From the NCBI GenBank assembly GCA_041498975.1, contig JBGQJI010000075.1, forward strand, positions 1 to 11,957: a DNA stretch of 11,957 bases, read 5' to 3'. This stretch comes from Candidatus Methylomirabilis sp. GTDB lineage: Bacteria; Methylomirabilota; Methylomirabilia; Methylomirabilales; Methylomirabilaceae. The notes under the pieces were generated by a model. The model made no database searches and had not been told where the DNA came from. It saw only the letters and a list, made by a program, of their open reading frames with translations. Of the stretch, positions 1-11,957 are shown piece by piece (position 1 is the first letter of the stretch; every line of letters begins with the position of its first letter). A program made the translations under genes and the position numbers.

Positions 1-1193
1 GCCCGGATCTTGCCGATCTGTTCAAGCAGCTTCTCCTCGGAGAGGCCCCCCGCGACGGTGGCGGATCGAGAATGATCTGACACGATGATGTACTCGTAGC
101 CTTTGCGGTGCGCCGCCTCGACCAGCGCCTCGAGATCGTGATGGCCGTCGCTCCAGTTGGTATGCGCATGCAGGTCGCCGCGAATGTCGTGGAGCTCCAG
201 CAACTCCGGCAGACGCCCCTCGAGCGCCGCCTCGATCTCGCCGGCGTCCTCCCGCAGCTCGGGCGGGATAAACGGCAGGCCGACTGCCTTGTAGACCTCC
301 TCTTCGGTGGCGCCGGCAATCCGCTTCCCGGTGGCCTCCTTGAAGACACCGTACTCGCTCACCTTGAGCCCCTTACGCGAGGCCAAGTCCCGCACCCGGA
401 TATTGTGCGCCTTGGAGCCGGTGAAGTACTGGAGGGCGGCGCCGAAGCACTCGGGCTCCACGACGCGCAGGTCCACCTGGATCCCCTCACGGTGACGGAC
501 CGTCGCCTTGGTGTCTCCCTGGAGCAGCACTTCCGCCACCTGGGGCAGCGAGGTGAAGGCCTCCATCACCTTCGCCGGTTTCGTGGACGTCGCCAGGAGG
601 TCGAAATCCTTGACGGTCTCGCGCATTCGGCGCAGGCTGCCCGCCATGCTGATCTTCTTGACCTGGGGAAGCTTTTCGAGAATCTGGACGATCTCGCGGG
701 CCAGTGGCAACGCCTGGCCCAGCAGCATCCGCTCCCGGCCCTTCTTGACAACCTGGATCCCCTTCAGAATATTGTCGACGGTCTTCTCTTTGATGCCCGG
801 GAGGCCGAGGAGCTTCCCTTCCAGAGCCAGCGCTTCCAACTTCTCGACCGAATCGACATGGAGTCTGTCAAAGAGAAGCTTGGCCGTCTTGGGCCCGATG
901 CCCGGGACCGCCAGCAACTCGACCACGCCTCTCGGGATTTGTTTTCTTAGCTCTTCCAGATACTTGATCCGCCCGGTCTCAAGGGCCTCCTGGATCTTCG
1001 CCGCGAGGTCTTTGCCAATGCCCGCGATCTCGGTGAGGCCGCCGCGCGCCGCCACAGCCTCGATCTGCTCGGTCAGGCTCTCCAGGTTCATGGCCGCCCG
1101 ACGGTACGCCCGGATCTTGAAGACATTCTCGTCCTTAATCTCCAACAGGTCGGCGATCTCGTGAAAGAGCTTGGATATTTCCAGGTTTCTCAT
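1..1193 (-). CDS. polX: DNA polymerase X family / PHP-domain protein (PolX), 3' end runs off the window
   Basis: Not in the ORF track; translated by hand from ATG at 1193 (MRNLEISKLFHEIADLLEIKDENVFKIRAYRRAA...) and open to the window edge. Motifs: HhH repeats (GIGKDLA, GIGPKTA), AGSLRRMRETVKDFD, QVDLRV, YFTGSKAHN, IPPELRE, and the PHP start GDLHAHTNWSDG...SDHS. The start overlaps the stop of the upstream kinase gene (ATGA). Confidence 0.97.
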   Translation of the reverse strand, partial: MRNLEISKLFHEIADLLEIKDENVFKIRAYRRAAMNLESLTEQIEAVAARGGLTEIAGIGKDLAAKIQEALETGRIKYLEELRKQIPRGVVELLAVPGIGPKTAKLLFDRLHVDSVEKLEALALEGKLLGLPGIKEKTVDNILKGIQVVKKGRERMLLGQALPLAREIVQILEKLPQVKKISMAGSLRRMRETVKDFDLLATSTKPAKVMEAFTSLPQVAEVLLQGDTKATVRHREGIQVDLRVVEPECFGAALQYFTGSKAHNIRVRDLASRKGLKVSEYGVFKEATGKRIAGATEEEVYKAVGLPFIPPELREDAGEIEAALEGRLPELLELHDIRGDLHAHTNWSDGHHDLEALVEAAHRKGYEYIIVSDHSRSATVAGGLSEEKLLEQIGKIR

Positions 1194-2272
1194 GGTATTA
1201 CCGGTTGGGCGATGGCATCGGCCACTTCCTGGCCTGAAGGATCGAGGCGCAGGCTTCCACAGTGGACATTCCGGATCGCTGCGCGATCACCGAATGGGGT
1301 CAGACAGACCAATCTCCCCGTTGCCGGATCGAGATGCTGCAGCAGACCGAGCGCAAGCAGTTCGTTCTCCTGGTCAGTGAGCCCAAGGAGCAGACCCCGG
1401 ATCGCATCAAGCGCCGTAATCTGGAGGACCGAGACGCCAAGACGACTCTTGGCCAGTGGCAGCCCGTCGGCCGCCGGTTCACTCTGCACAAGCAGGAAGG
1501 CCTCGTCATCGCCCCGCTCGCCACCCAGGACGGATGTCCGGAGCTCCATCGACAGGGCTCGCAGCTCGGCGTGATCGAGCGCCTCCCCCGCTTGCACCCA
1601 GCTTCCCAGGACCGCGACCTCGTTCAAGGAAAGCTCAAGGGGGAAGGCCGCCTGGAAGTGGTCGAAGAACCGCTGCGCCCGATAGAGTCGCCGACCCTGC
1701 GGAGTTCGAGGCGTGATCTGCGGGCTTAGCGGGAGCCGGGAGACGGCCATCCCTTTTCTGCCTTCGAACAGGCGGAGGATCGGCTCCAACTCTCCCTCTC
1801 TCTGCAATGCGATGAGGTGGTGTGGCGCGAGGAGTTCGATCTTGTGAAACTTGAGGCGACGCCCGAGAGGGCCAAGGACCAGACCGGTGGTGTCAACCAG
1901 CAGGACCTCTGCGCCCATGGCAGAGGCTTTCTCGGCCAGTCGCTTGAGAGCGACGGCGAGCGGGAGCATATGGCCCTGGGGGGAGACTGCTCCAACAAAG
2001 CGCAGCGAGACCGGGTGAAGAGGTTGGTCGGCGGGAGAGGCGGTAGCGAAGGCCAGCCCTGCCGTCGCGGGCGGCCCGAGGGTCGATTGCCCGATGTCGC
2101 CATCGAGAAGCGCAACTCGCCGGCCGGCGGCCGTGAGCGTGCTCAGGAGCCATCGGGCCAGGGTCGTCTTGCCGGAGTCGGACCTTCCCAGGAGCAGCGC
2201 GACGCCGCCCTCTGCGACGATCCTCTCGGAGAGCGTCCTCCAGGCATCGGGAACCTCGATGATCCCGGACAT
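1190..2272 (-). CDS. Clp1/Grc3(Nol9)-family polynucleotide 5'-hydroxyl kinase
   Basis: Walker A GRSDSGKTT, Walker B-like LLDGDIGQS followed by GPPAT, clasp-like VDTTGLV, Arg-rich lid RTPQGRRLYRAQRF, C-terminal GLLLGL...LGLL...LTP...GSLRL domain. ATG at 2272 is preferred over 2323 because it has a GGGGGAG ribosome-binding site. Confidence 0.88.
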   Translation of the reverse strand: MSGIIEVPDAWRTLSERIVAEGGVALLLGRSDSGKTTLARWLLSTLTAAGRRVALLDGDIGQSTLGPPATAGLAFATASPADQPLHPVSLRFVGAVSPQGHMLPLAVALKRLAEKASAMGAEVLLVDTTGLVLGPLGRRLKFHKIELLAPHHLIALQREGELEPILRLFEGRKGMAVSRLPLSPQITPRTPQGRRLYRAQRFFDHFQAAFPLELSLNEVAVLGSWVQAGEALDHAELRALSMELRTSVLGGERGDDEAFLLVQSEPAADGLPLAKSRLGVSVLQITALDAIRGLLLGLTDQENELLALGLLQHLDPATGRLVCLTPFGDRAAIRNVHCGSLRLDPSGQEVADAIAQPVIP

Positions 2273-2350
2273 CCCATCTCCCCCGCCAGGCCGGGCGGTC
2301 TGTCGAGGGCCCGCCGACCTCACACGGTGACGTCCAACCGGTCAGGCAGG

Positions 2351-2608
2351 TTAGGGTGTCACCTTGTACACGAGGTCGTGCAGGCGTGCCTTGGCCAGGA
2401 CCTGAACGGCCACGCGCTGACCAGTCTCGGCCTGCTCCACGGGGCTATGCTCGATCTGCATCGACTCGACCGGCTGCTCGAAATCGGTCGTCATGCCGCG
2501 GAAATGGATCATATCGCCAAGCCGTAGGGGCCCCGCTGTCAGCGTGATGATTGCCACGCCGAGCTTACTGTAATACTTTTCGACCCGTCCGATCCTGGAT
2601 TCGGACAT
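2351..2608 (-). CDS. Small stand-alone beta-barrel protein, translation-elongation-factor domain II-like / U32 peptidase C-terminal-like
   Basis: 85 aa, MSESRIGRVEKYYSKLGVAIITL...LRLGDMIHFRG...FEQPVESMQIEHSPVEQAETGQRVAVQV...ARLHDLVYKV. The V-x-S-M-Q...V-x-x-A-x-x-G-x-x-V pattern is typical of EF-Tu/SelB domain II barrels. Start could be 2608 or 2644. Confidence 0.75.
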   Translation of the reverse strand: MSESRIGRVEKYYSKLGVAIITLTAGPLRLGDMIHFRGMTTDFEQPVESMQIEHSPVEQAETGQRVAVQVLAKARLHDLVYKVTP

Positions 2609-2703
2609 TGACTCAATCCCGTCAGGACCGCCACCGTCCGACAATCATGTGCTCGAGACTAGTGCCGTTCCAACTACAACAAGCGAATCAAATGCTATTG
2701 GAT

Positions 2704-2890
2704 TGTCATCGCGAGCGACCAACGGGCCTGCCCTGAGCCTCGTCGAAGGGAGCGCGGCAATCCGACACGCAGTGTCGTTGCGAGGCGCCGCTCCCTCGGC
2801 AGTGCTCGGGACAGGCTGCGCAATCTCTCTGAGATTCCTCGCTCCGCTTGGAATGACCCTTCGACTCGCTCAGGGTCCTCGCAGTGACAC
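2704..2890. repeat. Composite/nested palindromic repeat element (REP/MITE-like)
   Basis: Family A arms: TGTCATCGCGAG (2704-2715), GTGTCGTTGCGAGG (2772-2785), inverted CCTCGCAGTGACAC (2877-2890), and GAGATTCCTCGCTCCGCTTGGAATGAC (2831-2857). Family B: CCCTGAGCCTCGTCGAAGGG (2731-2750) with inverted copies at 2791-2815 and 2857-2875. Confidence 0.85.
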
Positions 2891-2939
2891 GCGTGAGGGG
2901 GACCTTCGAAGCAATAACTCCATTCTTGGCGCGTTCGTA

Positions 2940-4304
2940 TTAGCGCGCCGACCCCTCGATGCCATAGGCCCTCATCTTCCGGTGAAGATTGCTCCTCTCG
3001 ATCCCGAGGCGCTCAGCGGTCCGGGTGACGTTCCACTGGTTTTCCTCCAGCCGACGCAGGATGAACTCCCGTTCGAATCGCGACCGCGCCTCCCTGAGCG
3101 TCCCATCGAGGGCCGCCCACGCCTCTCTTTTCACCCCACCGCGTCGAAGAGAGGGCGCGAGGTCAAAAAGCTGGATGGTCTTCGCCGCAACCATGATGAC
3201 CATGCGCTCGATGACATTCCTGAGCTCTCTGACGTTGCCGGGCCACTGGTAGTCGATCAGCAGCTCCATCGCCTCTGGCGAGAGCTCCTTCTTCGGTTTC
3301 CCGTGCTCCTGACAGAAGGACTGGAGGAAATATCTGGCCAGGATCGGGATGTCTTCCTGGCGTTCCCGGAGCGGGGGGACCTCGAAGGGGATGACGCTCA
3401 GGCGATAGAACAGATCCTCCCGGAAGGCGCCACGGCGGATCTCTTCCAGCAGATCTTTGTTCGAGGCCGCGATGACCCGGACATCCACGGTCAGGCTCTC
3501 GCTGCCTCCAACCCGCTCGAAGGTCTGTTCCTGGAGGACGCGGAGGACCTTCGCCTGGGTCTTGAGGCTCATATCACCCACTTCATCCAGAAAGATGGTG
3601 GCGCCGTCCGCCAGCTCGAACTTCCCGCGCCGCTGAGCCGTGGCGCCGGTAAAGGCGCCCCGCTCATGACCGAACAGTTCGCTCTCGATCAGCTCTTCCG
3701 GAATCGCCGCGCAGTTGACCACGACGAATGGCTTGTCGCTTCTGGCGCTGTGGCGATGGATCGCCCTGGCGATCAACTCCTTTCCGGTGCCACTTTCGCC
3801 CCGTATCAGGACCCGCCCGTTGGAAGGGGCAGCGGACAGAATCTGCTCGCGAAGGCTCTTGATCGCCTTGCTCTCGCCCACGATCTCATACCGCCGATCG
3901 ATGGTCTCGCGAAGCGCGCGATTCTCCCACTCGAGCCGCCGTTGATCGAGGGCGTGTCTGACGGCCAGTTGGACTTTATCCAAGTCGAGGGGCTTCTCCA
4001 GGTAGTCGTACGCCCCCAGCTTGGTGGCCTTCACGGCCGTCTCGATCGTGCCGTGGCCCGAGATCATGATGACTGGCAGCTCCGAGTGCAGCCGTTTGAT
4101 CGCCTCCAGCGTCTCAAGTCCATCCATCCCCGCCATCCAAATGTCGAGGACCACCAGGTCGGGAGGGTTCTTCTGGATGGCGCGCAGCGCCTCCTGTCCG
4201 TCCCCGACCCCCGTGACGCGGTACCCCTCGTCCCTGAGGATGGCCACGATCGACTTCAGGACCTTCTGGTCGTCGTCAACGACTAGGATCTCATCGTAGG
4301 CCAC
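2940..4304 (-). CDS. ntrX: Sigma54-dependent response regulator (REC-AAA+-Fis HTH), NtrX-like
   Basis: REC domain ILVVDD...VLDIWM...MISGHG...KP; Walker A GESGTGKE; intact GAFTGA; Walker B FLDEVG; WPGNVREL; HTH NVTRTAERLGIERSNLHRKM. Overlaps the end of the upstream kinase by 22 nt. Confidence 0.93.
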   Translation of the reverse strand: MAYDEILVVDDDQKVLKSIVAILRDEGYRVTGVGDGQEALRAIQKNPPDLVVLDIWMAGMDGLETLEAIKRLHSELPVIMISGHGTIETAVKATKLGAYDYLEKPLDLDKVQLAVRHALDQRRLEWENRALRETIDRRYEIVGESKAIKSLREQILSAAPSNGRVLIRGESGTGKELIARAIHRHSARSDKPFVVVNCAAIPEELIESELFGHERGAFTGATAQRRGKFELADGATIFLDEVGDMSLKTQAKVLRVLQEQTFERVGGSESLTVDVRVIAASNKDLLEEIRRGAFREDLFYRLSVIPFEVPPLRERQEDIPILARYFLQSFCQEHGKPKKELSPEAMELLIDYQWPGNVRELRNVIERMVIMVAAKTIQLFDLAPSLRRGGVKREAWAALDGTLREARSRFEREFILRRLEENQWNVTRTAERLGIERSNLHRKMRAYGIEGSAR

Positions 4305-6544
4305 TGCCCGACTCCATCCCCATTGTCCCCGGAAGGCTCCAGGGCAGGCAACTCGATGATGACCCGCGTCCCCTTCGGGACGTTATCTTCAATCCTGATC
4401 TGGCCTGCATGCTCGCCGACGATTCGATGCACGATGGCCAGGCCAAGGCCCGTCCCGCCCCGCTTGGTCGAGAAGTAAGGAAGGAACAGGCGCTCCCTGT
4501 CGATCCGGGGGATCCCGGGACCCGTATCGATCACTTCCAGTGCCACAACCCCTTTGCCCCGGAGGTATCGAGTCTTGATCACGACCTCTCCCTCTCCGCC
4601 GAGGGCATCCAGCGCATTGTCCACCAGGTTGATCAGTGCCCGCTTCATCTGCTCGGGATCCATGTTGACGGGAGGAAGCTCGGGATCGAGGTCTCGGCCG
4701 ATCTTGACCCCCTTCGGGACGGCCGAGTAGAGCGTCAGCACCATCTCCACCACCAGATGAAGATCATTCGGTTTCGGGTCGGAGGATGGCATCTTGGCGG
4801 CGTACCTTGAGAATTCGTCCACCAATCCCTTCAGCCCATTGACCTCCTGAATGATCGTCCGAGTGCATTCCTCGAACACCTGTTCGTAATCGGGCGCCCG
4901 ATCGGCAAACTTCTTCCTGAGCCGCTGTGCAGAGAGCTGGATCGGGGTCAACGGGTTCTTGATTTCGTGGGCGATCCGCCTCGCCACCTCTCGCCACGCC
5001 ATCGTCTGCTCTGCGCGGATCCGCTGGGTGATCTCCTCCAGGACCACCACCCTCCCGAGATGATTCTCCAAGCGATCGGTCAGCCCGCTGATGCTGACCA
5101 CGATATTGGCGACCCGCCCGTTGCGCTGGAGCGTCAGTTGTTGATCGACGACCCCACCCGCGTCATCCTCGGTCTTCTCCAACAGTCCCCGCAGCGGGCC
5201 GAGCGAGTCTCCGCTCAGGAGCTCAGCATAGTGACAAGGGGGCTTGCGGCGGCCCTCAAGCCCCAAGATCTGGATGGCTGCCGGATTGATGGTCGTGACG
5301 GTCCCCTGTCGATCAAGTGACAGGACGCCCGTCGCGATATTTTCCAGCACCGTTTCCATGTACGCCCGCCGCTGGTCCAATTCGACATTCGAGTGCTGCA
5401 GGTCAAGGTTAGCGCTTTCGAGCTCCGACTTGCTTTGCCGAAGGTCTTCCGTCATGTTGTTGAAAGAGTTCACCAGGATCCCGATCTCGTCGTCCGCCTT
5501 GGCGTCAACCCTGAAGTTCAGGTTCCCAGAGGCAACGGCCCTGGTCCCCTCGGCCAGTTGCTGGATCGGCACGGTGATGCCCCTCGCGAGGTAGACCCCG
5601 ACCCACACGGCGGCGAAGATGATGACCAGGGTCACCATGAGGAAGAGCATGATATAGATCCCCTTGATCGGGTTCTTCAGCATTTTAAGCTGCTGGTACT
5701 CTTTGACCCCCCGGGTGACCTCGCCCACCTTGGCGGAGAGCCCTTCGGGAATGAACTGGGTGGCTACCAGGAATATGGCCCGGCCCTTCGAGTCTGAGAG
5801 GGCGACGGGAGCCACTCCCCGGATCAAATCACCGCCGAAGATCATCTGGACGAATGCGAAGGTTTCTCCCCTTCTTCCCCGCCGGAGCGCCTGACCGAGG
5901 GGAGGCGGGTCGGCTGGCAGCCGTGTCTTCGCCCGGAGGCCCAACAGCTCCACACCGTTGCTATCGATGACCTGAATGGCATCGAGGTTGTAGTCGTGGA
6001 GCTTTTCAGCGATCAAGGTGCGGGCCAGCTCCTGTCCCTCTTCGCTGTCAAGGCCGCCTGGGTCGATGCCGGATGCTATCCGACGCGCCTGAAACACGAT
6101 GTTCTCGCCGGAAATCTTTTCGAAGACCTGCGCCACCTCCAGAGAGTGTTGGAGCGAATCTTCCACCCTGATGTTGAACCAGCTATCGACGCTGTTGGTG
6201 ATCAGGTTGCTGGCCACGACAAAGAGGAGCAAGGCGGGCAGGAGCGAGAGACTGACAAAAGCGACCACCAGCTTGACCCTGAACTTGGAACCGAGCAGGT
6301 TATCCCGGCGCTCGAGATAGACTTTGAAGAGGCTCCGAAAGACCAGGAGGACCAGGATCAGGAGGAGCACCATATTCACGTTGACGAGGGCGAAGACGAG
6401 GATATTGCTGGCGATCGGGGTGGGAAATCGGAGCTGATAGATCAAGACCTGGACGGTCGTCAACACCACGACGAGGCCGAAGACGGCCGCCAGGATTAGG
6501 CGGGTCCGGCGCTTGCGACGATCAGGGTCTTTCGGGGCCACCAT
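4283..6544 (-). CDS. ntrY: NtrY-like membrane sensor histidine kinase (TM helices, periplasmic domain, HAMP, PAS, HisKA, HATPase)
   Basis: Three N-terminal hydrophobic segments plus a fourth before the HAMP domain (PIQQLAEGTRAVASGNL...DEIGILVNSFNNMT). Also AWREVARRIAHEIKNPLTPIQLSAQRL H-box, NLVDNA, DTGPG, PYFSTK and GTGLGL. Confidence 0.93.
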   Translation of the reverse strand: MVAPKDPDRRKRRTRLILAAVFGLVVVLTTVQVLIYQLRFPTPIASNILVFALVNVNMVLLLILVLLVFRSLFKVYLERRDNLLGSKFRVKLVVAFVSLSLLPALLLFVVASNLITNSVDSWFNIRVEDSLQHSLEVAQVFEKISGENIVFQARRIASGIDPGGLDSEEGQELARTLIAEKLHDYNLDAIQVIDSNGVELLGLRAKTRLPADPPPLGQALRRGRRGETFAFVQMIFGGDLIRGVAPVALSDSKGRAIFLVATQFIPEGLSAKVGEVTRGVKEYQQLKMLKNPIKGIYIMLFLMVTLVIIFAAVWVGVYLARGITVPIQQLAEGTRAVASGNLNFRVDAKADDEIGILVNSFNNMTEDLRQSKSELESANLDLQHSNVELDQRRAYMETVLENIATGVLSLDRQGTVTTINPAAIQILGLEGRRKPPCHYAELLSGDSLGPLRGLLEKTEDDAGGVVDQQLTLQRNGRVANIVVSISGLTDRLENHLGRVVVLEEITQRIRAEQTMAWREVARRIAHEIKNPLTPIQLSAQRLRKKFADRAPDYEQVFEECTRTIIQEVNGLKGLVDEFSRYAAKMPSSDPKPNDLHLVVEMVLTLYSAVPKGVKIGRDLDPELPPVNMDPEQMKRALINLVDNALDALGGEGEVVIKTRYLRGKGVVALEVIDTGPGIPRIDRERLFLPYFSTKRGGTGLGLAIVHRIVGEHAGQIRIEDNVPKGTRVIIELPALEPSGDNGDGVGQWPTMRS

Positions 6545-6563
6545 ACGCCTACCTTCTGCGGGC

Positions 6564-6683
6564 CTACCTCAGACGCGGCCGAGACCGCCTGTGGCGTGTC
6601 ACAATGAGCGGGCGACGCCCGAACAGGAGGGAGTGAGGGGGAAAGACAGCCTTGATGCAGCAAACCGGGGACTCGACCTGCAC
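6564..6683 (-). CDS. Putative 39-aa small/leader ORF (MQVESPVCCIKAVFPPHSLLFGRRPLIVTRHRRSRPRLR)
   Basis: GTG at 6683 preceded by GAGGTGATCC (strong Shine-Dalgarno, GAGG 7 nt before the start); TAG at 6564-6566, 19 nt before the ntrY ATG; lies just downstream of a sigma70-like promoter. No homology recognised. Confidence 0.35.
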   Translation of the reverse strand: MQVESPVCCIKAVFPPHSLLFGRRPLIVTRHRRSRPRLR

Positions 6684-6719
6684 GGGATCACCTCGCACAC
6701 TACCCTTAAGCCTGCGGCC

Positions 6720-6749
6720 ACTATAGCCGAAACCTTAGAATGGTTGCAA
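6720..6749 (-). promoter_or_regulatory. Putative sigma70 promoter for small ORF-ntrY-ntrX
   Basis: Minus strand TTGCAA-N18-TATAGT in an otherwise GC-rich intergenic region. Confidence 0.55.
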
Positions 6750-6823
6750 GGGCAAAGATGACGAGCCCGAGTGGGCCGGGGCAGCGGAGGGGGGGCGGCG
6801 AAAATCCGTCAGGAGAAGGCGGG

Positions 6824-7750
6824 TTAGGAAGGGGCGACCTTCAGGGACCGTTCTGGCTGAAGCAACGGCCTTGCCCATCGTTCGATCACGCCATGACGGG
6901 TGGGGGCCAGTTGCTGTTGGTCGAGGTGACGCTGGATTTCTTGCACCAGCTTGGTATGAAGCAGGTGTCCCGCGCTGTGGGCGATGACGGTTCCTAGCAC
7001 AGGCCTGCCAAGGAGATACAGATCTCCCAGGAGATCGAGGATTTTATGGCGAACTAACTCGTCCCTGAAGCGTAGATCGCCGTTCAGGACCCCACTCTCG
7101 CCGATCACGATCGCATTGTCGAACGAGCCGCCCAGAGCCAGGTTGCGGCGGCGAAGCTCCTCCAAATCTTGGAGGAAGCCGTAGGTCCGACAACCAGCGA
7201 TCTCGCTGACGAACGTCTCCCTGGAGATGTCGAACGCGGCCGACTGCTCTCCAAGAAGAGGATGGTCGAAACGCATCGTATAGATGACCTGAAGCCGCTC
7301 AGAAGGGACGATCTGAATGCTGCGCAGGCCTGCCTCGACCACGAGGCGCTCTTTCACCTTGAGATAGGTTCTGGGAGCCATCTGCCGTCGCAGACCTGCT
7401 TTCCTGATGAGCTCGACAAATGGCGCGGCGCTTCCATCCATGGCGGGGACCTCCTCGCCGTGGAGTTCCACAAGGATGTTGTCCACTCCCAAGCCAGCAA
7501 AGGCCGCCATCAGATGCTCGATGGTCCTGACCTTTACGCCACCCTTGCCGATCGTGGTTGCATGGTGAACATCGACGATGTTCGCCGGTTTGGCTTCGAT
7601 CGCGGGAGCACCTGGGTGGTCCACCCGCTTGAAGATAACCCCGGAGTTGGCCGGAGCGGGACGGAGACACATTGTGACCGACTTTCCGGTGTGAAGCCCT
7701 ATCCCTTCACAACTCACTACCGTTTGAAGCGTTCGCTGATGGCCCACCAT
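6824..7750 (-). CDS. lpxC: UDP-3-O-acyl-N-acetylglucosamine deacetylase
   Basis: QRTL...GIGLHTG N-terminus, TIEHLMAA, EVPAMDGSA, RTYGF, GGSFDNAIV, HKILDLLGDL, AGH; RBS AGGAG. Confidence 0.98.
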   Translation of the reverse strand: MVGHQRTLQTVVSCEGIGLHTGKSVTMCLRPAPANSGVIFKRVDHPGAPAIEAKPANIVDVHHATTIGKGGVKVRTIEHLMAAFAGLGVDNILVELHGEEVPAMDGSAAPFVELIRKAGLRRQMAPRTYLKVKERLVVEAGLRSIQIVPSERLQVIYTMRFDHPLLGEQSAAFDISRETFVSEIAGCRTYGFLQDLEELRRRNLALGGSFDNAIVIGESGVLNGDLRFRDELVRHKILDLLGDLYLLGRPVLGTVIAHSAGHLLHTKLVQEIQRHLDQQQLAPTRHGVIERWARPLLQPERSLKVAPS

Positions 7751-7839
7751 CTTCTCCTAATCGATCACCGATTCCAATTCATAGCTCAACGCTCAACCGG
7801 ACGCACCGCCTCCTCGCCAGAAAGGCCAAAGATGTTAAG

Positions 7840-7856
7840 TGCAAGTCGTGTACCAG
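7840..7856 (-). promoter_or_regulatory. Sigma54 (-24/-12) promoter of lpxC
   Basis: Minus strand CTGGTACACGACTTGCA = GG-N10-GC, one mismatch from TGGCAC-N5-TTGCW, about 90 nt upstream of the lpxC ATG. Confidence 0.8.
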
Positions 7857-7902
7857 TTCCTCACAAGACATGACAGAGATTATTGCGAGATAACCGGTGT
7901 AG

Positions 7903-7915
7903 ATTCAATAGGTTA
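7903..7915 (+). promoter_or_regulatory. Putative IHF-binding site
   Basis: ATTCAATAGGTTA vs consensus WATCAANNNNTTR (one mismatch), between the sigma54 promoter and the candidate enhancer. Confidence 0.5.
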
Positions 7916-7957
7916 AGAACAATGGCAAGGACCACGGCCAGAGCTGCAATGTCCCAG

Positions 7958-7975
7958 TGTTGATACGCTGCAACA
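7958..7975. promoter_or_regulatory. Putative enhancer (UAS) for a sigma54 activator
   Basis: Inverted repeat TGTTG-N8-CAACA (TGT-N12-ACA) about 130-145 nt upstream of the predicted sigma54 transcription start. Confidence 0.5.
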
Positions 7976-7981
7976 GGTGTG

Positions 7982-8476
7982 TCACATCGGCCTCGCTCTC
8001 CAACGGTAAAAGAGGCGCTCTAGAACGTCCCGACAGGGGCGATCCTGGACGGGGGCCAGAATTTGCTGGACCTTCGCCTCCGCCTCGGTTGGAACGACGG
8101 GCGGCCTCTCCTCTCGCCGATTGGGGATTGCCGAGGTAGCGCTTCGAGGACTTCGGCCGATCCGTAAGACGATCTCGTTCACCACTGGTTCTCCGATCTC
8201 CTCGTTCAGGATCATCTTTAGTTTGTGACGCAGCATGTGCAGCTCGTGCAGCCAGATCGGATCCTCGACGCAGAGGTACAGTCGCCCATCACTGAAGTCC
8301 TGCACGGTCGCCCGTTCCCTCACGCGCGGCGCCACGGCTCGATCCCATGCCTTCAGCAGGGCGAGGTGACGAATCACACGACCGAGACCCAGTCCTTGAA
8401 GGGTCCCCCGGAGCACATCCTCGCACCTAGAGGGGCTGGCTCGCCCCCCTCGCTCCGTCGATCCTTTCTCCCTCAC
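7982..8476 (-). CDS. DUF721 / DciA-family protein
   Basis: LLKAWDRAV...RATVQDFSDGRLYLCVEDPIWLHELHMLRHKLKMILNEEIGEPVVNEIVLRIG matches the DUF721 pattern. GTG overlaps the lemA stop (GTGA); the exact start is uncertain. Confidence 0.8.
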   Translation of the reverse strand: MREKGSTERGGRASPSRCEDVLRGTLQGLGLGRVIRHLALLKAWDRAVAPRVRERATVQDFSDGRLYLCVEDPIWLHELHMLRHKLKMILNEEIGEPVVNEIVLRIGRSPRSATSAIPNRREERPPVVPTEAEAKVQQILAPVQDRPCRDVLERLFYRWRARPM

Positions 8477-9063
8477 CTGACAAACTCGACTTTAGGGGCC
8501 GTCCTGGCGGATTCGGCCACCTGGAAGTAGGTCGCCTTCTCGAAACGGAAAAGCCCGGCAACGGTTCGCTCCGGAAAGCGACGAATCTTGGTATTATATT
8601 GTTGCACCAGGTCATTGTATCGCTTCCGCTCGACTGCTAAACGATTCTCCGTCCCTGCAAGCTCGTCCATCAGCCGAATGAAGCTCCTGTCTGCTTTGAG
8701 GTTCGGGTACCGTTCAACGACGACGAGGAGGCGCCCCAGCGCAGAGTCCATGGCGTTGCTGGCATTCACCTTTTCTTCGACAGTCCTGGCTCCTGCCATC
8801 CTCGCCCTCGCATCGGCGATGGCCTCCAGGACGTCTCTTTCGTGGGCGGCATACCCTTTCACCGTGGCCACCAGATTCGGGATGAGGTCGGCGCGACGCT
8901 GGAACTGATTCTCGATCTGGGCCCAGGCCGACTTGATCCCCTCATCCATTGAGACCAACTGATTATAACCGTTCCAGAGGTACAACGCGCCGCCCAGGAC
9001 GAGAAGGGCGATGACTGCCGCGATCCCGAGAGCCGGCGCAATCGCCCGATTGTATCCGTTCAC
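8473..9063 (-). CDS. lemA: LemA family membrane protein
   Basis: N-terminal TM helix, YNQLV...AWAQIENQFQRRADLIPNLVATVKGYAAHE, ERYPNLKA, LAGTENRLAVERKRYN...YN...FP. Confidence 0.96.
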   Translation of the reverse strand: MNGYNRAIAPALGIAAVIALLVLGGALYLWNGYNQLVSMDEGIKSAWAQIENQFQRRADLIPNLVATVKGYAAHERDVLEAIADARARMAGARTVEEKVNASNAMDSALGRLLVVVERYPNLKADRSFIRLMDELAGTENRLAVERKRYNDLVQQYNTKIRRFPERTVAGLFRFEKATYFQVAESARTAPKVEFVR

Positions 9064-9665
9064 GTCCGCTCCACCTCTGCCGACGCTGCGACCAATGCCT
9101 CATCGATGGCGCGATTGGCGAGCGTATCGGCCTGGCGGTTCTCGTCGCGACCGACATGCTCAATGTGAAAAGTGGGGATGGTTCTGATGAGATCTCGCGC
9201 GTGAGAATGCAGCACGGCGAGGCGAGGATTCTTGACTCGGTACCTGCCTTCAATTTGCCGGACCAACAACTCGGAGTCAGACCGGACCCTGACCGCGGCC
9301 GGCTTCAGCCTTCCTGCCTCCCTTAGGGCAAGCAGGAGCGCTTCGTACTCGGCAACGTTGTTGGTGGCCTCGCCGATGTACTTCCAGAACTCCCGTTTTA
9401 ACGGCCCCTTCTCGGCCTGTATCAAGACACCGATCCCGGCCGGTCCTGGATTCCCACGAGCCGCCCCGTCGATACTCATCACGAGATGCAAACCCTGTCT
9501 GGCGGCTGAGTCGGGGGGACACCATGCTCGTTCGATCAGGTCTGCCGCCTCCACGAGGGCGCGCCTGTCCCTCGGCGAGAGGGTCGGAGGGCACGAATCT
9601 CCACCGGTTGAGGCAACCTTGTCCGCCAGGCAACGGAGTGCGGCACAGATCTTGTCCGGGTCCAC
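9060..9665 (-). CDS. rnhA: Ribonuclease HI (archaeal/actinobacterial-like type) with a ~58-aa N-terminal extension
   Basis: DGAARGNPGPAGIG, GEATNNVAEYEAL, SDSELLVRQ..G.YRVK, HVGRDENRQADTLAN; all four catalytic acidic residues (D, E, D, D) are present. Confidence 0.92.
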   Translation of the reverse strand: MDPDKICAALRCLADKVASTGGDSCPPTLSPRDRRALVEAADLIERAWCPPDSAARQGLHLVMSIDGAARGNPGPAGIGVLIQAEKGPLKREFWKYIGEATNNVAEYEALLLALREAGRLKPAAVRVRSDSELLVRQIEGRYRVKNPRLAVLHSHARDLIRTIPTFHIEHVGRDENRQADTLANRAIDEALVAASAEVERT

Positions 9666-9666
9666 C

Positions 9667-10383
9667 TTATCCCTTCCAGTAGAGGATCCGGCCGCATCGT
9701 TCGCAGGTCAGGATCTCTTCGTTCCGCCGAACCTCATTATACAACTGAGGGGTGAGGGCCACGTGGCAACCCTCGCAGGAGCCGCCGCTTGCCGGCGCAA
9801 CCGCCAGGCCGGCTCGACTCTTGAGAAGCCGAAGATACTGCTGCATCAACGATGACTCCACGCCCCTGGACTGGCCTTTCCTGGTCGCCTGTAGCGCGGC
9901 CAAGCGACCCTGCAGCTCCCGAAGCTCGGCCTCCCTCTTCTGCTTCTCCCTCAAGAACTCCGCCTGCTTAACTCCGACCGTCCCCTCTTGATGGGCCACG
10001 GCCTTTACAGCCCCCTCGATCTGGTCGAGAAGCAGCAGGACGTCCTCCTCCACCGTCGAAACCTTCTGTTTTAGCCCCTCGATCTCTTTGAGGACGGCAG
10101 AGTATTCCTGGTTGGTCTTGATCTCATAGAGGCGGCTCTGCCGCTTTTTGAGATCCCCAACCACCTCTTCCAGCTCCCGCTCCTTCTGGCGGCGAAGCTT
10201 CTGCATCTTCTCCATCTCCGCCTTTGCTGTGTCCAGAGCCGTCCTGGCCCGAAGTAACTGCTCCTCCATCTCCCGGATCTGACCGGGGATGGCCGCCGCC
10301 GCTGCCTCGATCTCAGCGATTTCGGAGTCAAGCCGCTGCAGTTCGACAAGCCGTCCTAACTCCTCCAGCACAGCACGCTCCAC
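9667..10383 (-). CDS. Coiled-coil protein with C-terminal C4 zinc ribbon (DUF164 / zf-RING_7 / CT398-like)
   Basis: LVELQRLD start, long heptad coiled coil with KTNQEYSA, then CEGCH...CERCGRILY. Confidence 0.92.
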   Translation of the reverse strand: MERAVLEELGRLVELQRLDSEIAEIEAAAAAIPGQIREMEEQLLRARTALDTAKAEMEKMQKLRRQKERELEEVVGDLKKRQSRLYEIKTNQEYSAVLKEIEGLKQKVSTVEEDVLLLLDQIEGAVKAVAHQEGTVGVKQAEFLREKQKREAELRELQGRLAALQATRKGQSRGVESSLMQQYLRLLKSRAGLAVAPASGGSCEGCHVALTPQLYNEVRRNEEILTCERCGRILYWKG

Positions 10384-10394
10384 GATGGTCGGAA

Positions 10395-10474
10395 ATAGCT
10401 GCCAGCGGTCAGCTCTCAGCTTTCAATATCATCTGCGTCCAGGGCTGATGGCTGAATGCTGAGGGCTGTTAGCT
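10395..10474. repeat. Inverted array of degenerate 7-bp repeats (TCAGCnn ... nnGCTGA)
   Basis: Left arm ATAGCTG CCAGCGG TCAGCTC TCAGCTT TCA; right arm GGGCTGA TGGCTGA ATGCTGA GGGCTGT TAGCT; the arms are imperfect reverse complements. Confidence 0.8.
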
Positions 10475-10480
10475 CTTGCG

Positions 10481-10557
10481 TGGTGGGCCCACCTGGACTC
10501 GAACCAGGGACGACCCGGTTATGAGCCGGGGGCTCTAACCAACTGAGCTATGGGCCC
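10481..10557 (-). tRNA. tRNA-Ile2 (anticodon CAU, lysidine-modified)
   Basis: GGGCCCATAGCTCAGTTGGTTAGAGCCCCCGGCTCATAACCGGGTCGTCCCTGGTTCGAGTCCAGGTGGGCCCACCA (77 nt, encoded CCA). Paired G1-C72 rules out the initiator. C4-G69/C5-G68 (TilS determinants) and the position after rpoD, like E. coli ileX, favour Ile2 over elongator Met. Confidence 0.93.
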
Positions 10558-10560
10558 AAT

Positions 10561-10639
10561 GAGTTCAGGGTTCAGGGTTCATCGTTCAGAGTATCTGAAA
10601 ACTGAAGCCGGCTCGGCGGCATCCATGAACTCTGAACTG
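10561..10639. repeat. Inverted array of degenerate 7-bp repeats (nnGTTCA ... TGAACnn)
   Basis: GAGTTCA GGGTTCA GGGTTCA TCGTTCA (10561-10588); inverted TGAAAAC TGAAGCC (10596-10609) and TGAACTC TGAACTG (10626-10639). Confidence 0.75.
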
Positions 10640-10646
10640 GCTCCCC

Positions 10647-11957
10647 TTAGCCTTCAACGAAGCTCTTGAGTTTCCTGCTTCGCGTGGGATGTCGGAGCTT
10701 CCGCAACGCCTTGGCCTCGATCTGTCGGATTCGTTCCCTGGTGACGTCGAACTGCTGGCCCACTTCCTCCAGCGTATGGTCGCGCCCATCCCCGATCCCG
10801 AAACGGAGCTTCAAGACCTTCTTCTCCCGCTCCGTGAGGGTCTGGAGAACCTCTTCGGTCTGACCGCTCAGATTCATGCCGATGACAGCCTCGATCGGAG
10901 AGACCGCTCCTTTGTCCTCGATGAAGTCTCCCAGGTGGGAATCCTCCTCCTCCCCGATGGGCGTCTCGAGAGAGATCGGCTCCTGAGCGATCTTCAGGAC
11001 CTTCCTGACCTTGTCAACCGGCAAGTCGATCTTCTGGGCGATCTCCTCGGGTGTCGGCTCCCGCCCCATCTCCTGGACAAGGTAACGGGAGGCACGCGTC
11101 AGCTTGTTAATGGTCTCGATCATATGAACGGGGATCCGGATGGTGCGGGCCTGGTCGGCAATCGCGCGTGTAATAGCCTGGCGGATCCACCATGTCGCAT
11201 AGGTGCTGAACTTATATCCTCGCTGATACTCGAACTTGTCCACAGCCCGCATGAGGCCGATGTTGCCCTCCTGGATCAAGTCGAGAAACTGAAGGCCCCG
11301 GTTCGTGTATTTCTTTGCGATGCTGATCACCAGTCGGAGGTTGGCCTCCACCATCTCCTTCTTCGCCAGGAGCGCCTTCCGCTCCCCGTTGGTGATGGCC
11401 TGAAGCAAGGAACGAAGCTCCTTGGCGGAAGCGTCGGCTTCCTCCTCGACCTTACGGATTTTCCGCTGGACGTCCGCGATCGAACGTTCACACTCCGCCA
11501 GGTCCTTCCGGCTCAGCTTGGTCCGGCGTAGGATCTCTCGCACAGTGGCAGCCCTGTCCCGGCCGTTGCTCGAAATGACCTTGACATCCTGTACCGACAG
11601 GTGGTACGCCCTTCCCGCCTCGCGAAGTTCCCGCTCATCCTGTTCTATTCGTTCCAGGAGATTGCGCATCCTGGCCACGACCCTCTCGACGATTCTCTGA
11701 TTGATATTGAGCTTCCGAAGAAGGGTGGCCTGCGCCGCCTTGCGCCTCGCGATCTCATCCTGGATCTTCTGTTGCCACCTCTCGCTGAGGCGGCCGGCGC
11801 CCCGCAGGTAACGACGCCGCAATTCATCGATCTTCACCTGTTCCTTTCGGAGCCCCTCCAATAACGGGGCGTTCTCGGCCAGCAACTCCTTCTCCTTCTG
11901 TTCGGAGATCTCGTCGAACTCATTGAGCGCAAACAGCTCTCCAACCCGAGCCCGGCC
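10647..11957 (-). CDS. rpoD: RNA polymerase primary sigma factor RpoD (5' end outside the window)
   Basis: [85 protein letters not shown]. The frame stays open from 11885 to the window edge. Confidence 0.99.

What the first reader, a model, noticed from the sequence alone, without database searches (positions are those of the whole stretch)
1..2272. Clp1-type polynucleotide kinase translationally coupled to an intact PolX-PHP: candidate end-healing and gap-filling repair module
Seen: the kinase TGA and polX ATG overlap (ATGA, 1190-1193). The kinase keeps Walker A, DxDxGQ, DTTG and lid arginines. PolX keeps its catalytic triad (DFD + VDLR) and the first PHP metal motifs (HAH, SDH). Known: Clp1/Grc3 enzymes phosphorylate 5'-OH ends and are mainly eukaryotic/archaeal, with sporadic bacterial members discussed mostly in RNA repair. 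Bacterial PolX-PHP fills gaps, and its PHP domain has 3'-phosphatase, 3'-5' exonuclease and AP-endonuclease activity, but it has no 5'-kinase. Inference: the pair would convert 5'-OH/3'-P breaks into ligatable nicks, analogous to eukaryotic PNKP + Pol beta. I do not know of this pairing being characterised.
Basis: partly seen in the sequence, partly recalled or inferred. Interest (0 to 1): 0.75.

Follow-up and report, generated by a model that had tools for sequence, protein, structure and literature searches.

The report
Clp1-type kinase coupled to repair polymerase PolX
In a methane-oxidising bacterium (Candidatus Methylomirabilis) a kinase of the Clp1 family, which phosphorylates nucleic-acid 5' ends, overlaps the start of the DNA-repair polymerase PolX, and comparison with other bacteria suggests it is an optional DNA end-repair helper, though no experiment has shown this.

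Summary
On the minus strand a 360-aa Clp1-family P-loop kinase (1190-2272) ends in an ATGA overlap with polX (3-1193). polX runs off the contig at residue 397, so "intact" cannot be shown.

- **Within the genus:** direct adjacency occurs only in this genome and 4 of 19 congeners. Nine congeners have polX and no kinase.
- **Sister family:** the order is Fpg-kinase-radical SAM-PolX-DUF72.
- **Thermodesulfobacteriota:** 2 of 30 kinase-bearing genomes carry PolX-small protein-EndoQ-radical SAM-kinase-Nudix-DUF72 on one strand. The small protein is 52% identical to the ORF just upstream of the window's kinase.
- **Other lineages:** the kinase sits beside DUF72 with LigA, RecJ, DinB, RuvC or Ogt, and in some beside cobalamin or metabolic genes.
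- **No linkage:** no polX was found near the kinase in 65 loci of other clades, or in 20 further loci of the same phylum (19 of other families in the class, one of a sister family).

Most likely (about 0.55) it is an accessory DNA 5'-OH kinase of a variable PolX-centred repair toolkit. No biochemistry supports this, and the one characterised bacterial homologue prefers RNA.

The parts
3..1193 (-). polX, first 397 codons of a bacterial PolX-PHP polymerase; runs off the contig end
   Evidence: contig end; rest not in the assembly
1190..1193 (-). ATGA: kinase stop TGA overlaps polX start ATG; no Shine-Dalgarno-like purine run in the 27 bases before the polX ATG
   Evidence: the same overlap (ATGA/GTGA) in G014, G016, G005
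1190..2272 (-). Clp1-family P-loop kinase, 360 aa plus stop
   Evidence: PF16575 122.5 bits; PDB Clp1/NOL9/GRC3 by profile; model pLDDT 91.5; Foldseek Clp1 4oi0 E 4.7e-18
2278..2281 (-). GGAG ribosome-binding site, 5 bases before the kinase ATG at 2272
   Evidence: read from the sequence
2162..2188 (-). kinase Walker A, GRSDSGKTT (aa 29-37)
   Evidence: invariant G29, G34, K35
2087..2104 (-). kinase DGDIGQ (aa 57-62)
   Evidence: D59, G61, Q62 invariant
1883..1894 (-). kinase DTTG (aa 127-130)
   Evidence: D127, G130 invariant
1679..1693 (-). kinase lid-like RRLYR (aa 194-198)
   Evidence: R194 invariant, R198 at least 90%
600..608 (-). PolX catalytic DFD (aa 196-198)
   Evidence: aligned with 3au2; D196, D198 invariant in 27 PolX
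465..476 (-). PolX VDLR with the third catalytic Asp (D241)
72..170 (-). start of the PHP domain with HAH (162-170) and SDH (72-80)
   Evidence: H344, D349, D373, H374 invariant in orthologues
2351..2608 (-). small EF-Tu-domain-2-like protein (85 aa from M13 of ORF 2351-2644), candidate third member, 78 bases upstream of the kinase
   Evidence: weak GTP_EFTU_D2 hit; 52% identical, E 4e-31, to the 83-aa protein between PolX and EndoQ in G211; small protein-rSAM-PolX in G041/G077
2645..2939 (.). non-coding spacer made of a dispersed genome-wide repeat; the closest relatives have about 50 bases here
   Evidence: 58 matches in the own genome; L002/L003 spacing
2940..6544 (-). context: sigma-54 response regulator (2940-4304) and sensor histidine kinase (4283-6544), part of the block missing in kinase-less congeners
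   Evidence: synteny
6824..7750 (-). context: lpxC, which directly precedes polX in congeners without the kinase
   Evidence: L025 lpxC-polX

Best explanation
The kinase is an accessory polynucleotide 5'-OH kinase that works on DNA ends within a variable, PolX-centred repair toolkit for base excision and single-strand breaks.

Shown:
- It has the Clp1 kinase fold and motifs.
- Its stop overlaps the polX start, and polX has no ribosome-binding site of its own, so the two are made from one mRNA, probably by termination-reinitiation.
- The same kinase family recurs next to PolX, Fpg, EndoQ, a divergent DUF72 subfamily, a radical-SAM enzyme, Nudix, LigA and RecJ in several lineages.

Inferred:
- At nicks or gaps with 3'-phosphate and 5'-OH ends, the PHP domain of PolX removes the 3' block (published activity of bacterial PolX).
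- The kinase adds the 5'-phosphate.
- PolX fills the gap. Its 8-kDa domain binds 5'-phosphate in this polymerase family (recalled).
- LigA seals the nick.
- The small EF-Tu-domain-2-like protein upstream may be a partner or adaptor.

The kinase is dispensable. Most congeners have lost it, or never had it, and keep PolX.
For: - Family and fold.
- Coupling: ATGA/GTGA overlap in 4 of 5 genomes with the adjacent pair. No terminator-like site lies between the genes. A 294-nt contig of a relative (20 differences) from an RNA library bridges 1074-1367; this is weak, because DNA carry-over is not excluded.
- Same order: 9 of the 15 loci of the Methylomirabilales kinase clade hold polX on the same strand, 4 adjacent and 5 at 1.0-3.3 kb. 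Example L055: Fpg-kinase-rSAM-PolX-DUF72-DUF72, with gaps of 0-170 nt.
- Second phylum: G211 and G257 (GC 42%, kinase 32% identical) carry PolX-small protein-EndoQ-rSAM-kinase-Nudix-DUF72 on one strand.
- Small protein 52% identical between the two phyla.
- Divergent DUF72 lies within 1.2 kb of the kinase, same strand, in 9 of 30 kinase-bearing Thermodesulfobacteriota genomes. It is present in 17 of 30 kinase-bearing and 16 of 171 kinase-less genomes. PolX is present in 25 of 30 and 70 of 171.
- Related sets without the kinase: DUF72-PolX-LigA-Fpg (G283) and Fpg-DUF72-rSAM...PolX (G242).
- Other clades: RecJ directly upstream in 4 loci; LigA divergent from DUF72-kinase in 5 loci; DinB, RuvC, Ogt and an MrfA-like helicase in single lineages.
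- Own genome: LigA found; RtcB, RNA_ligase, Ku and ATP-dependent ligase not found (assembly 84.9% complete).
- Prokaryotic Clp1 enzymes also phosphorylate ssDNA (PMC6777427, passages).
Against: - No assay exists for this protein. Ts-Clp1 phosphorylated ssDNA only at high enzyme amounts and preferred RNA.
- The kinase is absent from 9 congeners that keep polX, among them a closed genome. One sister-family genome (G028) holds only a C-terminal remnant.
- polX was found near the kinase in 0 of 65 loci of other clades, 0 of 20 further loci of the same phylum (19 of other families in the class, one of a sister family) and only 2 of 30 Thermodesulfobacteriota genomes.
- The sensor kinase and response regulator genes are kept in the same neighbourhood, so part of the synteny may be plain inheritance.
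- Some clades of the family sit by cobalamin genes (His_Phos_1, CobA) or metabolic genes, so the family is not uniformly tied to repair.
- Fpg and EndoQ products already carry 5'-phosphate (recalled), so these enzymes alone do not call for a kinase.
- Gene calls in the loci come from my own crude script, and the tree is FastTree only, with long branches.
Confidence: 0.55

Rival explanations
1. The kinase is an RNA 5'-OH kinase, like the characterised Clp1 enzymes, serving RNA repair, processing or 5'-phosphate-dependent decay. Its position by polX is inherited gene order without shared function.
For: Ts-Clp1 and archaeal Clp1 prefer ssRNA (PMC6777427, passages). All solved relatives are RNA kinases: Clp1, NOL9, GRC3. 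The unrelated sensor kinase and regulator genes are conserved in the same block. In the other families of the class (taken to be Rokubacteriales-like) the kinase lies after rsmD-coaD-aminotransferase. Earlier notes of this scan describe Clp1-RNase Z fusions in other bacteria (not tested here).
Against: No RtcB or RNA_ligase family gene was found in the genome (incomplete assembly). Linkage with DNA-repair genes recurs in distant lineages and in different gene orders. RNA-related neighbours are few: YlxR and a MiaB-like gene, one locus each.
Confidence: 0.2
2. The kinase phosphorylates 5'-OH ends so that 5'-phosphate-dependent exonucleases of the RecJ type can degrade damaged or imported nucleic acid. 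This would be recycling or resection, not nick sealing with PolX.
For: RecJ (DHH-DHHA1-RecJ_OB) lies directly upstream of the kinase in 4 Brocadiales-type loci: L063, L066, L069, L070. Earlier notes of this scan describe RecJ-like nuclease, small protein and Clp1 modules beside nucleoside-salvage genes (only the RecJ adjacency was seen here).
Against: No RecJ lies next to the kinase in the Methylomirabilota loci. Here the partners are a polymerase, glycosylase or endonuclease genes and, in other lineages, LigA.
Confidence: 0.12
3. The protein is not a polynucleotide kinase. It would be a P-loop kinase or NTPase acting on a small nucleotide-like molecule, and the Clp1 likeness reflects fold only.
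For: Several clades of the same alignment sit beside His_Phos_1 (CobC-like) and CobA/BtuR genes (L099, L109, L110, L112, L118) or SAM_HAT genes.
Against: The whole protein, including the C-terminal domain, superposes on Clp1 over about 360 columns. The motif set invariant in the family is kept. A bacterial member has shown polynucleotide kinase activity.
Confidence: 0.08

Closest known systems
Prokaryotic Clp1 polynucleotide 5'-kinases (Thermus scotoductus Ts-Clp1, Pyrococcus horikoshii Clp1)
   Same: The same Pfam family and P-loop motifs. No eukaryote-type N-terminal domain: the P-loop starts at residue 29. The literature reports relaxed specificity that includes ssDNA.
   Different: Those enzymes were studied alone, with RNA as the preferred substrate and no known partner. 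Here the gene is coupled to polX and sits in repair-gene neighbourhoods. Ts-Clp1 is described as lacking a C-terminal domain, whereas this protein has one that aligns with the Clp1 C-terminal domain in the fold search.
Mammalian PNKP with Pol beta and NEIL glycosylases (APE-independent base excision and single-strand-break repair; recalled knowledge)
   Same: The proposed logic is the same: a glycosylase/lyase leaves a 3'-phosphate, end healing by a 3'-phosphatase and a 5'-kinase follows, then a family-X polymerase and a ligase. The Fpg-kinase-...-PolX order in L055 mirrors this parts list.
   Different: PNKP is one polypeptide with a T4-Pnk-type kinase and a HAD phosphatase. Here the kinase is of the Clp1 family, the phosphatase would be the PHP domain of PolX, and the genes are separate. 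No activity has been shown.
Bacterial PolX-PHP (T. thermophilus, B. subtilis, D. radiodurans)
   Same: Residues 1-397 align end to end with ttPolX, and the catalytic Asp triad and first PHP ligands are present. [quoted passage not shown]
   Different: No kinase partner is described for those enzymes: 0 papers hold both 'Clp1' and 'PolX'.
EndoQ-centred repair cluster noted earlier in this scan (e1-1508773)
   Same: The same parts list, Clp1 kinase, Nudix, radical SAM, EndoQ and PolX, was found here independently in G211 and G257. The small protein links it to the window.
   Different: The window's lineage has no EndoQ, Nudix or radical SAM gene in the cluster; only small protein-kinase-PolX remain together.
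Bacterial Pnkp/Hen1 RNA repair system (Clostridium thermocellum; recalled, and introduction of PMC6777427)
   Same: End healing by a kinase plus a phosphoesterase encoded together.
   Different: A different kinase family, a ligase domain in the same protein, and an RNA substrate. None of these parts is present here.

Membership tests
Clp1/Nol9/Grc3 polynucleotide kinase family (PF16575 CLP1_P) | Profile match above the curated cut-off | tested here: met
   122.5 bits against 26.6, profile positions 1-187 of 188
Clp1/Nol9/Grc3 polynucleotide kinase family (PF16575 CLP1_P) | Walker A P-loop, acidic DxDxGQ stretch, DTTG and lid arginines (motif names recalled) | tested here: met
   aa 29-37, 57-62, 127-130, 194-198; invariant or at least 90% conserved in 54 sequences
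Clp1/Nol9/Grc3 polynucleotide kinase family (PF16575 CLP1_P) | Clp1 fold | tested here: met
   Model pLDDT 91.5, pTM 0.89. Foldseek: C. elegans Clp1 4oi0_A E 4.7e-18, TM 0.60 over 366 columns; human CLP1 8hmy_E TM 0.63
Clp1/Nol9/Grc3 polynucleotide kinase family (PF16575 CLP1_P) | 5'-OH polynucleotide kinase activity, and the substrate (RNA or DNA) | not testable with these tools
   Only a literature analogue exists: Ts-Clp1
Bacterial/archaeal PolX with PHP domain (NF006375) | Equivalog profile above the cut-off | tested here: inconclusive
   379.2 bits against 426; only profile positions 6-394 of 571 are encoded before the contig ends
Bacterial/archaeal PolX with PHP domain (NF006375) | 8-kDa/HhH, fingers, palm with three catalytic Asp, thumb | tested here: met
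   HHH_8, HHH_5 and thumb domains; D196, D198, D241 aligned with 3au2 and invariant in 27 PolX
Bacterial/archaeal PolX with PHP domain (NF006375) | Complete set of PHP metal ligands | tested here: inconclusive
   H342, H344, D349 and H374 are present in the window. The rest lies beyond the contig end and was not found in the assembly. Orthologues keep E413, H440, H468, D529 and H531
PNKP/T4 Pnk-type bifunctional end-healing enzymes | Kinase and 3'-phosphatase in one polypeptide, T4-Pnk-type kinase fold | tested here: not met
   The kinase is a separate gene of the Clp1 family. No longer fused forms were found (weak evidence). The likeness is functional only
Conserved operon or gene module (kinase with PolX) | Linkage kept across lineages that have otherwise rearranged | tested here: inconclusive
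   Met in two families of one order and in 2 of 30 genomes of a second phylum. Not met in 65 + 20 other loci or in 9 kinase-less congeners

The most novel reading that the evidence does not exclude
Bacteria have a so far undescribed split counterpart of PNKP. A Clp1-family enzyme would serve as the DNA 5'-OH kinase of a mosaic PolX-centred repair toolkit: PolX-PHP, a small EF-Tu-domain-2-like protein, a radical-SAM enzyme, a divergent DUF72 nuclease-like protein, Fpg or EndoQ, Nudix and LigA. The small protein would act as the kinase's or polymerase's adaptor.
Probability: 0.35. Interest if true: 0.8.

Novelty: new variant of a known kind. Interest (0 to 1): 0.6.

Why it matters
As far as I recall, no dedicated kinase for 5'-OH DNA ends is established for bacterial chromosome repair, and bacterial Clp1 homologues have no known job. 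If this kinase heals DNA 5'-OH ends for PolX and LigA, three things follow:
- bacterial Clp1 enzymes would gain a function;
- single-strand-break repair would gain a missing step;
- several unstudied partners that travel with PolX (the DUF72 subfamily, the radical-SAM enzyme, the small barrel protein) would gain a context for study.

The claim can be tested directly with purified proteins.

Tried and rejected
- **Complex prediction** of kinase with full-length PolX, both from locus L045 and each with its alignment: verdict 'no answer', score 0.00 in two runs, controls not run. This is no evidence either way.
- **Fused forms.** Searches for longer proteins holding the kinase, with the single protein and with the 54-row alignment, found none. 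The tool itself calls this weak evidence.
There were 13 matches in the window against 8.8 expected. The idea that the neighbouring regulator drives the pair is therefore untested.
- **Structured RNA in the 2640-2945 spacer:** z-score -0.30, and no Rfam family. It is a dispersed repeat instead.
- **RNA evidence.** Only one RNA run held 6% of the sampled words. It consists of contigs of relatives, so it does not show a single transcript.
- **Careful tree.** Whether the Thermodesulfobacteriota linkage arose independently is therefore unresolved.
- **Ligase left of the window:** impossible to check, since the contig ends there. In relatives polX is followed by toxin-antitoxin genes, or by DUF72 and gamma-glutamyltranspeptidase.
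- **Radical SAM as spore-photoproduct lyase:** rejected. There are only weak hits to activase-type models.
Full report
**What is in the window.** The window is contig C75 of a 2.68-Mb, 84.9%-complete assembly and starts at the contig's first base. The closest public loci are titled Candidatus Methylomirabilis. All genes of interest are on the minus strand. In transcription order they are:
- rpoD, then other genes, then lpxC (6824-7750);
- a sensor histidine kinase (4283-6544);
- a sigma-54 response regulator (2940-4304);
- a 295-nt spacer;
- a small ORF (2351-2644, real start probably 2608);
- the kinase (1190-2272);
- polX (3-1193, cut by the contig end).

The kinase stop and the polX start share ATGA at 1190-1193. 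The kinase has a GGAG five bases before its ATG. polX has no such site in the 27 bases before its ATG. No terminator-like site lies between the genes.

**Identity of the two proteins.** The kinase matches PF16575 CLP1_P at 122.5 bits against a cut-off of 26.6. A profile of 11 relatives finds human and C. elegans Clp1, NOL9 and GRC3 among solved structures. The AlphaFold model, built on a 54-row alignment, has pLDDT 91.5. It aligns over about 360 columns with Clp1 structures, E 4.7e-18 and TM 0.60-0.63, so the C-terminal half is Clp1-like too. Walker A, DGDIGQ, DTTG and RRLYR are present and conserved. PolX residues 1-397 align end to end with T. thermophilus PolX and keep D196, D198, D241 and the first PHP ligands.

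**How far the linkage reaches within the phylum.** Orthologues of the kinase (E 1e-150 or better) occur in 4 of 19 congeneric genomes. A fifth hit at E 3.5e-4 is a bare P-loop match. In all four, polX follows directly. Three have an ATGA or GTGA overlap and one has a 66-nt spacer.
- polX is found in 14 of the 19 congeners.
- Nine of these, including a closed one-contig genome, have no kinase anywhere.
- In 6 of those 9, my gene calls put lpxC directly before polX.

The block of sensor kinase, regulator, small ORF and kinase is therefore an insertion or deletion between lpxC and polX, and the kinase is dispensable for PolX.

In a 201-genome sample of the phylum, the kinase is present in 83 genomes and PolX in 157. 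A pattern scan found 308 relatives in public genomes, of which the best 80 loci were kept. Of these 80, 9 hold polX within the flank: 4 adjacent and 5 at 1.0-3.3 kb. All 9 fall in one 15-row Methylomirabilales clade of a FastTree tree.

In the sister family the order is GNAT-like, Fpg, kinase, radical SAM (302 aa), PolX, DUF72, DUF72, on one strand with short gaps. Fpg abuts the kinase in L055. One genome has a toxin-antitoxin pair inserted (L059). One holds only a C-terminal remnant of the kinase (G028). In another family the two genes are 12.9 kb apart (G025).

The other families of the class have a distant kinase clade, which I take to be Rokubacteriales-like. There the kinase follows recG...rsmD-coaD-aminotransferase. 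None of the 20 loci fetched (19 of these families, one of a sister family) holds polX, Fpg, DUF72 or the radical SAM gene.

**Other phyla.** None of the 65 loci outside the Methylomirabilales clade has polX within up to 8 kb. I scanned the two genes on either side of the kinase in these loci, 242 proteins from my own gene calls.

| Neighbour of the kinase | Loci |
|---|---|
| RecJ directly upstream | L063, L066, L069, L070 |
| Divergent DUF72 overlapping the kinase start, with LigA divergent from it | L073, L092, L098, L105; L071 by HMM and tblastn |
| DUF72 | L067, L120 |
| DinB after the kinase, the 302-aa-type radical SAM before it | L088 |
| RuvC | L089 |
| Ogt-type DNA-binding domain | L078, L090 |
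| MrfA-like helicase | L101 |
| Nudix | L084 |
| AP_endonuc_2 barrels (a broad family) | L086, L093, L116 |
| His_Phos_1 and/or CobA | L099, L109, L110, L112, L118 |
| SAM_HAT | L104, L117, L122 |
| NTPase_1 | L067, L106, L119 |
| Macro | L068, L077 |
| Dehydrogenase and acyl-CoA genes | L056-L058, L062, L064 |

By my count, 16 of the 65 loci have a clear DNA-repair gene within two genes of the kinase. I ran no formal enrichment test, and the categories were chosen after seeing the data.

**A second phylum, tested on purpose.** I sampled 201 Thermodesulfobacteriota genomes centred on the genome of L071.

| Gene | Genomes with it (of 201) |
|---|---|
| Kinase | 30 |
| PolX | 95 |
| Divergent DUF72 subfamily | 33 |
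| Small EF-Tu-D2-like protein | 64 |

- Kinase and polX share a contig in 2 of the 30 kinase-bearing genomes (G211, G257), about 2.7 kb apart.
- There, a tightly packed same-strand cluster reads AdoMet synthetase, PolX-PHP, an 83-aa EF-Tu-domain-2-like protein, EndoQ (E 1.7e-53 to P. furiosus EndoQ 5zb8), radical SAM, Clp1 kinase, Nudix, divergent DUF72, baeRF.
- The kinase is 32% identical to the window's. It sits on its own long branch outside the starred Methylomirabilales clade, and its placement is unresolved.
- The divergent DUF72 lies within 1.2 kb of the kinase on the same strand in 9 of the 30, upstream in some and downstream in others.
- It is present in 17 of 30 kinase-bearing genomes and 16 of 171 others. 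PolX is present in 25 of 30 and 70 of 171. Related genomes are not independent, so these ratios are only suggestive.
- Kinase-less relatives of the set also exist: DUF72-PolX-LigA-Fpg in G283, and Fpg-DUF72-rSAM...PolX in G242.
- L091 holds EndoQ, Nudix, DUF72 and the kinase without polX.

**The small ORF.** The 85-aa product of 2351-2608 gives only a weak EF-Tu domain 2 hit. It is nevertheless 52% identical (E 4e-31) to the 83-aa protein between PolX and EndoQ in G211.
- The family is common: 83 of 201 Methylomirabilota and 64 of 201 Thermodesulfobacteriota genomes, mostly in other places.
- The own genome has a second copy on C43. The kinase-linked copy exists only here and in G014 and G016.
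- It also lies near PolX in G041 and G077, in the order small protein, 302-aa-type radical SAM, about 1.5 kb, PolX, with no kinase.
- In G235 a 34%-identical copy lies about 350 nt after polX.

I treat it as a candidate third member of the module.

**Reading.** PolX, the small protein and a radical-SAM enzyme form a recurring core. Fpg or EndoQ, the divergent DUF72, Nudix, LigA and the Clp1 kinase join it in different combinations. The window's lineage keeps small protein, kinase and PolX together, while its radical SAM orthologue (60% identical) and its DUF72 genes lie on other contigs.

DUF72 is uncharacterised. It has been predicted to be an endonuclease IV-like DNA enzyme (PMC3828134, abstract). 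It has also been noted as related to UV-damage endonuclease and enriched near polB2 (PMC11791011, one passage).

The published PHP activities include 3'-phosphatase (PMC6616362, abstract in the listing). That family-X polymerases bind a 5'-phosphate in gaps is recalled knowledge. In the own genome the only ligase found that needs a 5'-phosphate is LigA.

Together this makes a DNA 5'-OH kinase role the best-supported reading, at about 0.55. The points against it are given in full in the Against line and the rival explanations.

**Literature and earlier notes.** No paper in the searched library holds both 'Clp1' and 'PolX'. The broad survey of Clp1 proteins (PMC6777427; passages found with six and then four search terms) shows no discussion of gene neighbourhoods in those passages. 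I did not read its supplements.

I found the same parts list independently in G211 and G257. Other notes describe RecJ-like, CobC-like and RNase Z partners of bacterial Clp1 kinases. I saw the RecJ and His_Phos_1 adjacencies here, and did not see the fusions.

Noticed in passing
window 2640-2945: The spacer between the response regulator and the small ORF is built from a dispersed repeat. It has 58 matches in the own genome, up to 97% identical over about 95 nt, in several sub-modules. The closest relatives have only about 50 nt here. One copy lies just after the radical-SAM orthologue on contig C136.
   Followed up: partly
window 2351-2608 (-); G000:C43:1985-2236: The small EF-Tu-domain-2-like protein has two copies in this genome. 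The family is present in 83 of 201 Methylomirabilota and 64 of 201 Thermodesulfobacteriota genomes, and lies near PolX in several unrelated genomes. Its function is unknown.
   Followed up: partly
L073, L092, L098, L105 (about 5160-8900); L071: In Thermodesulfobacteriota a divergent DUF72 subfamily overlaps the start of the Clp1 kinase. LigA is transcribed divergently next to it, and a TGS-domain GTPase follows the kinase.
   Followed up: partly
L155 (G283) 5514-10903: A same-strand set of DUF72, PolX, LigA and Fpg: a nearly complete base-excision-repair gene set without the kinase.
   Followed up: partly
L063, L066, L069, L070: In anammox-type Planctomycetota, RecJ lies directly upstream of the Clp1-family kinase.
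   Followed up: no
L099, L109, L110, L112, L118: One group of kinases of the same family sits beside His_Phos_1 (CobC-like) and CobA/BtuR genes. This hints at a cobalamin-linked role, different from nucleic-acid repair.
   Followed up: no
G028:C196:14018-14311: Only the C-terminal third of the kinase (residues 251-348) is left, 3.4 kb upstream of polX. This looks like a decayed copy.
   Followed up: no
window 7841-7855 and 7970-7984 (-): Two one-mismatch matches to the sigma-54 promoter consensus lie upstream of lpxC and near the dciA start. The window as a whole is not enriched (13 matches against 8.8 expected).
   Followed up: no
window 10484-10557 (-): A tRNA gene (Rfam tRNA, 68 bits) lies between the zinc-ribbon/CT398-like gene and rpoD.
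   Followed up: no
L047 7324-9077; L048 3650-5430: In another Methylomirabilales family a HAD_2 phosphatase gene overlaps the start of the kinase. It is followed by a cNMP-binding patatin gene, and polX lies 13 kb away.
   Followed up: no
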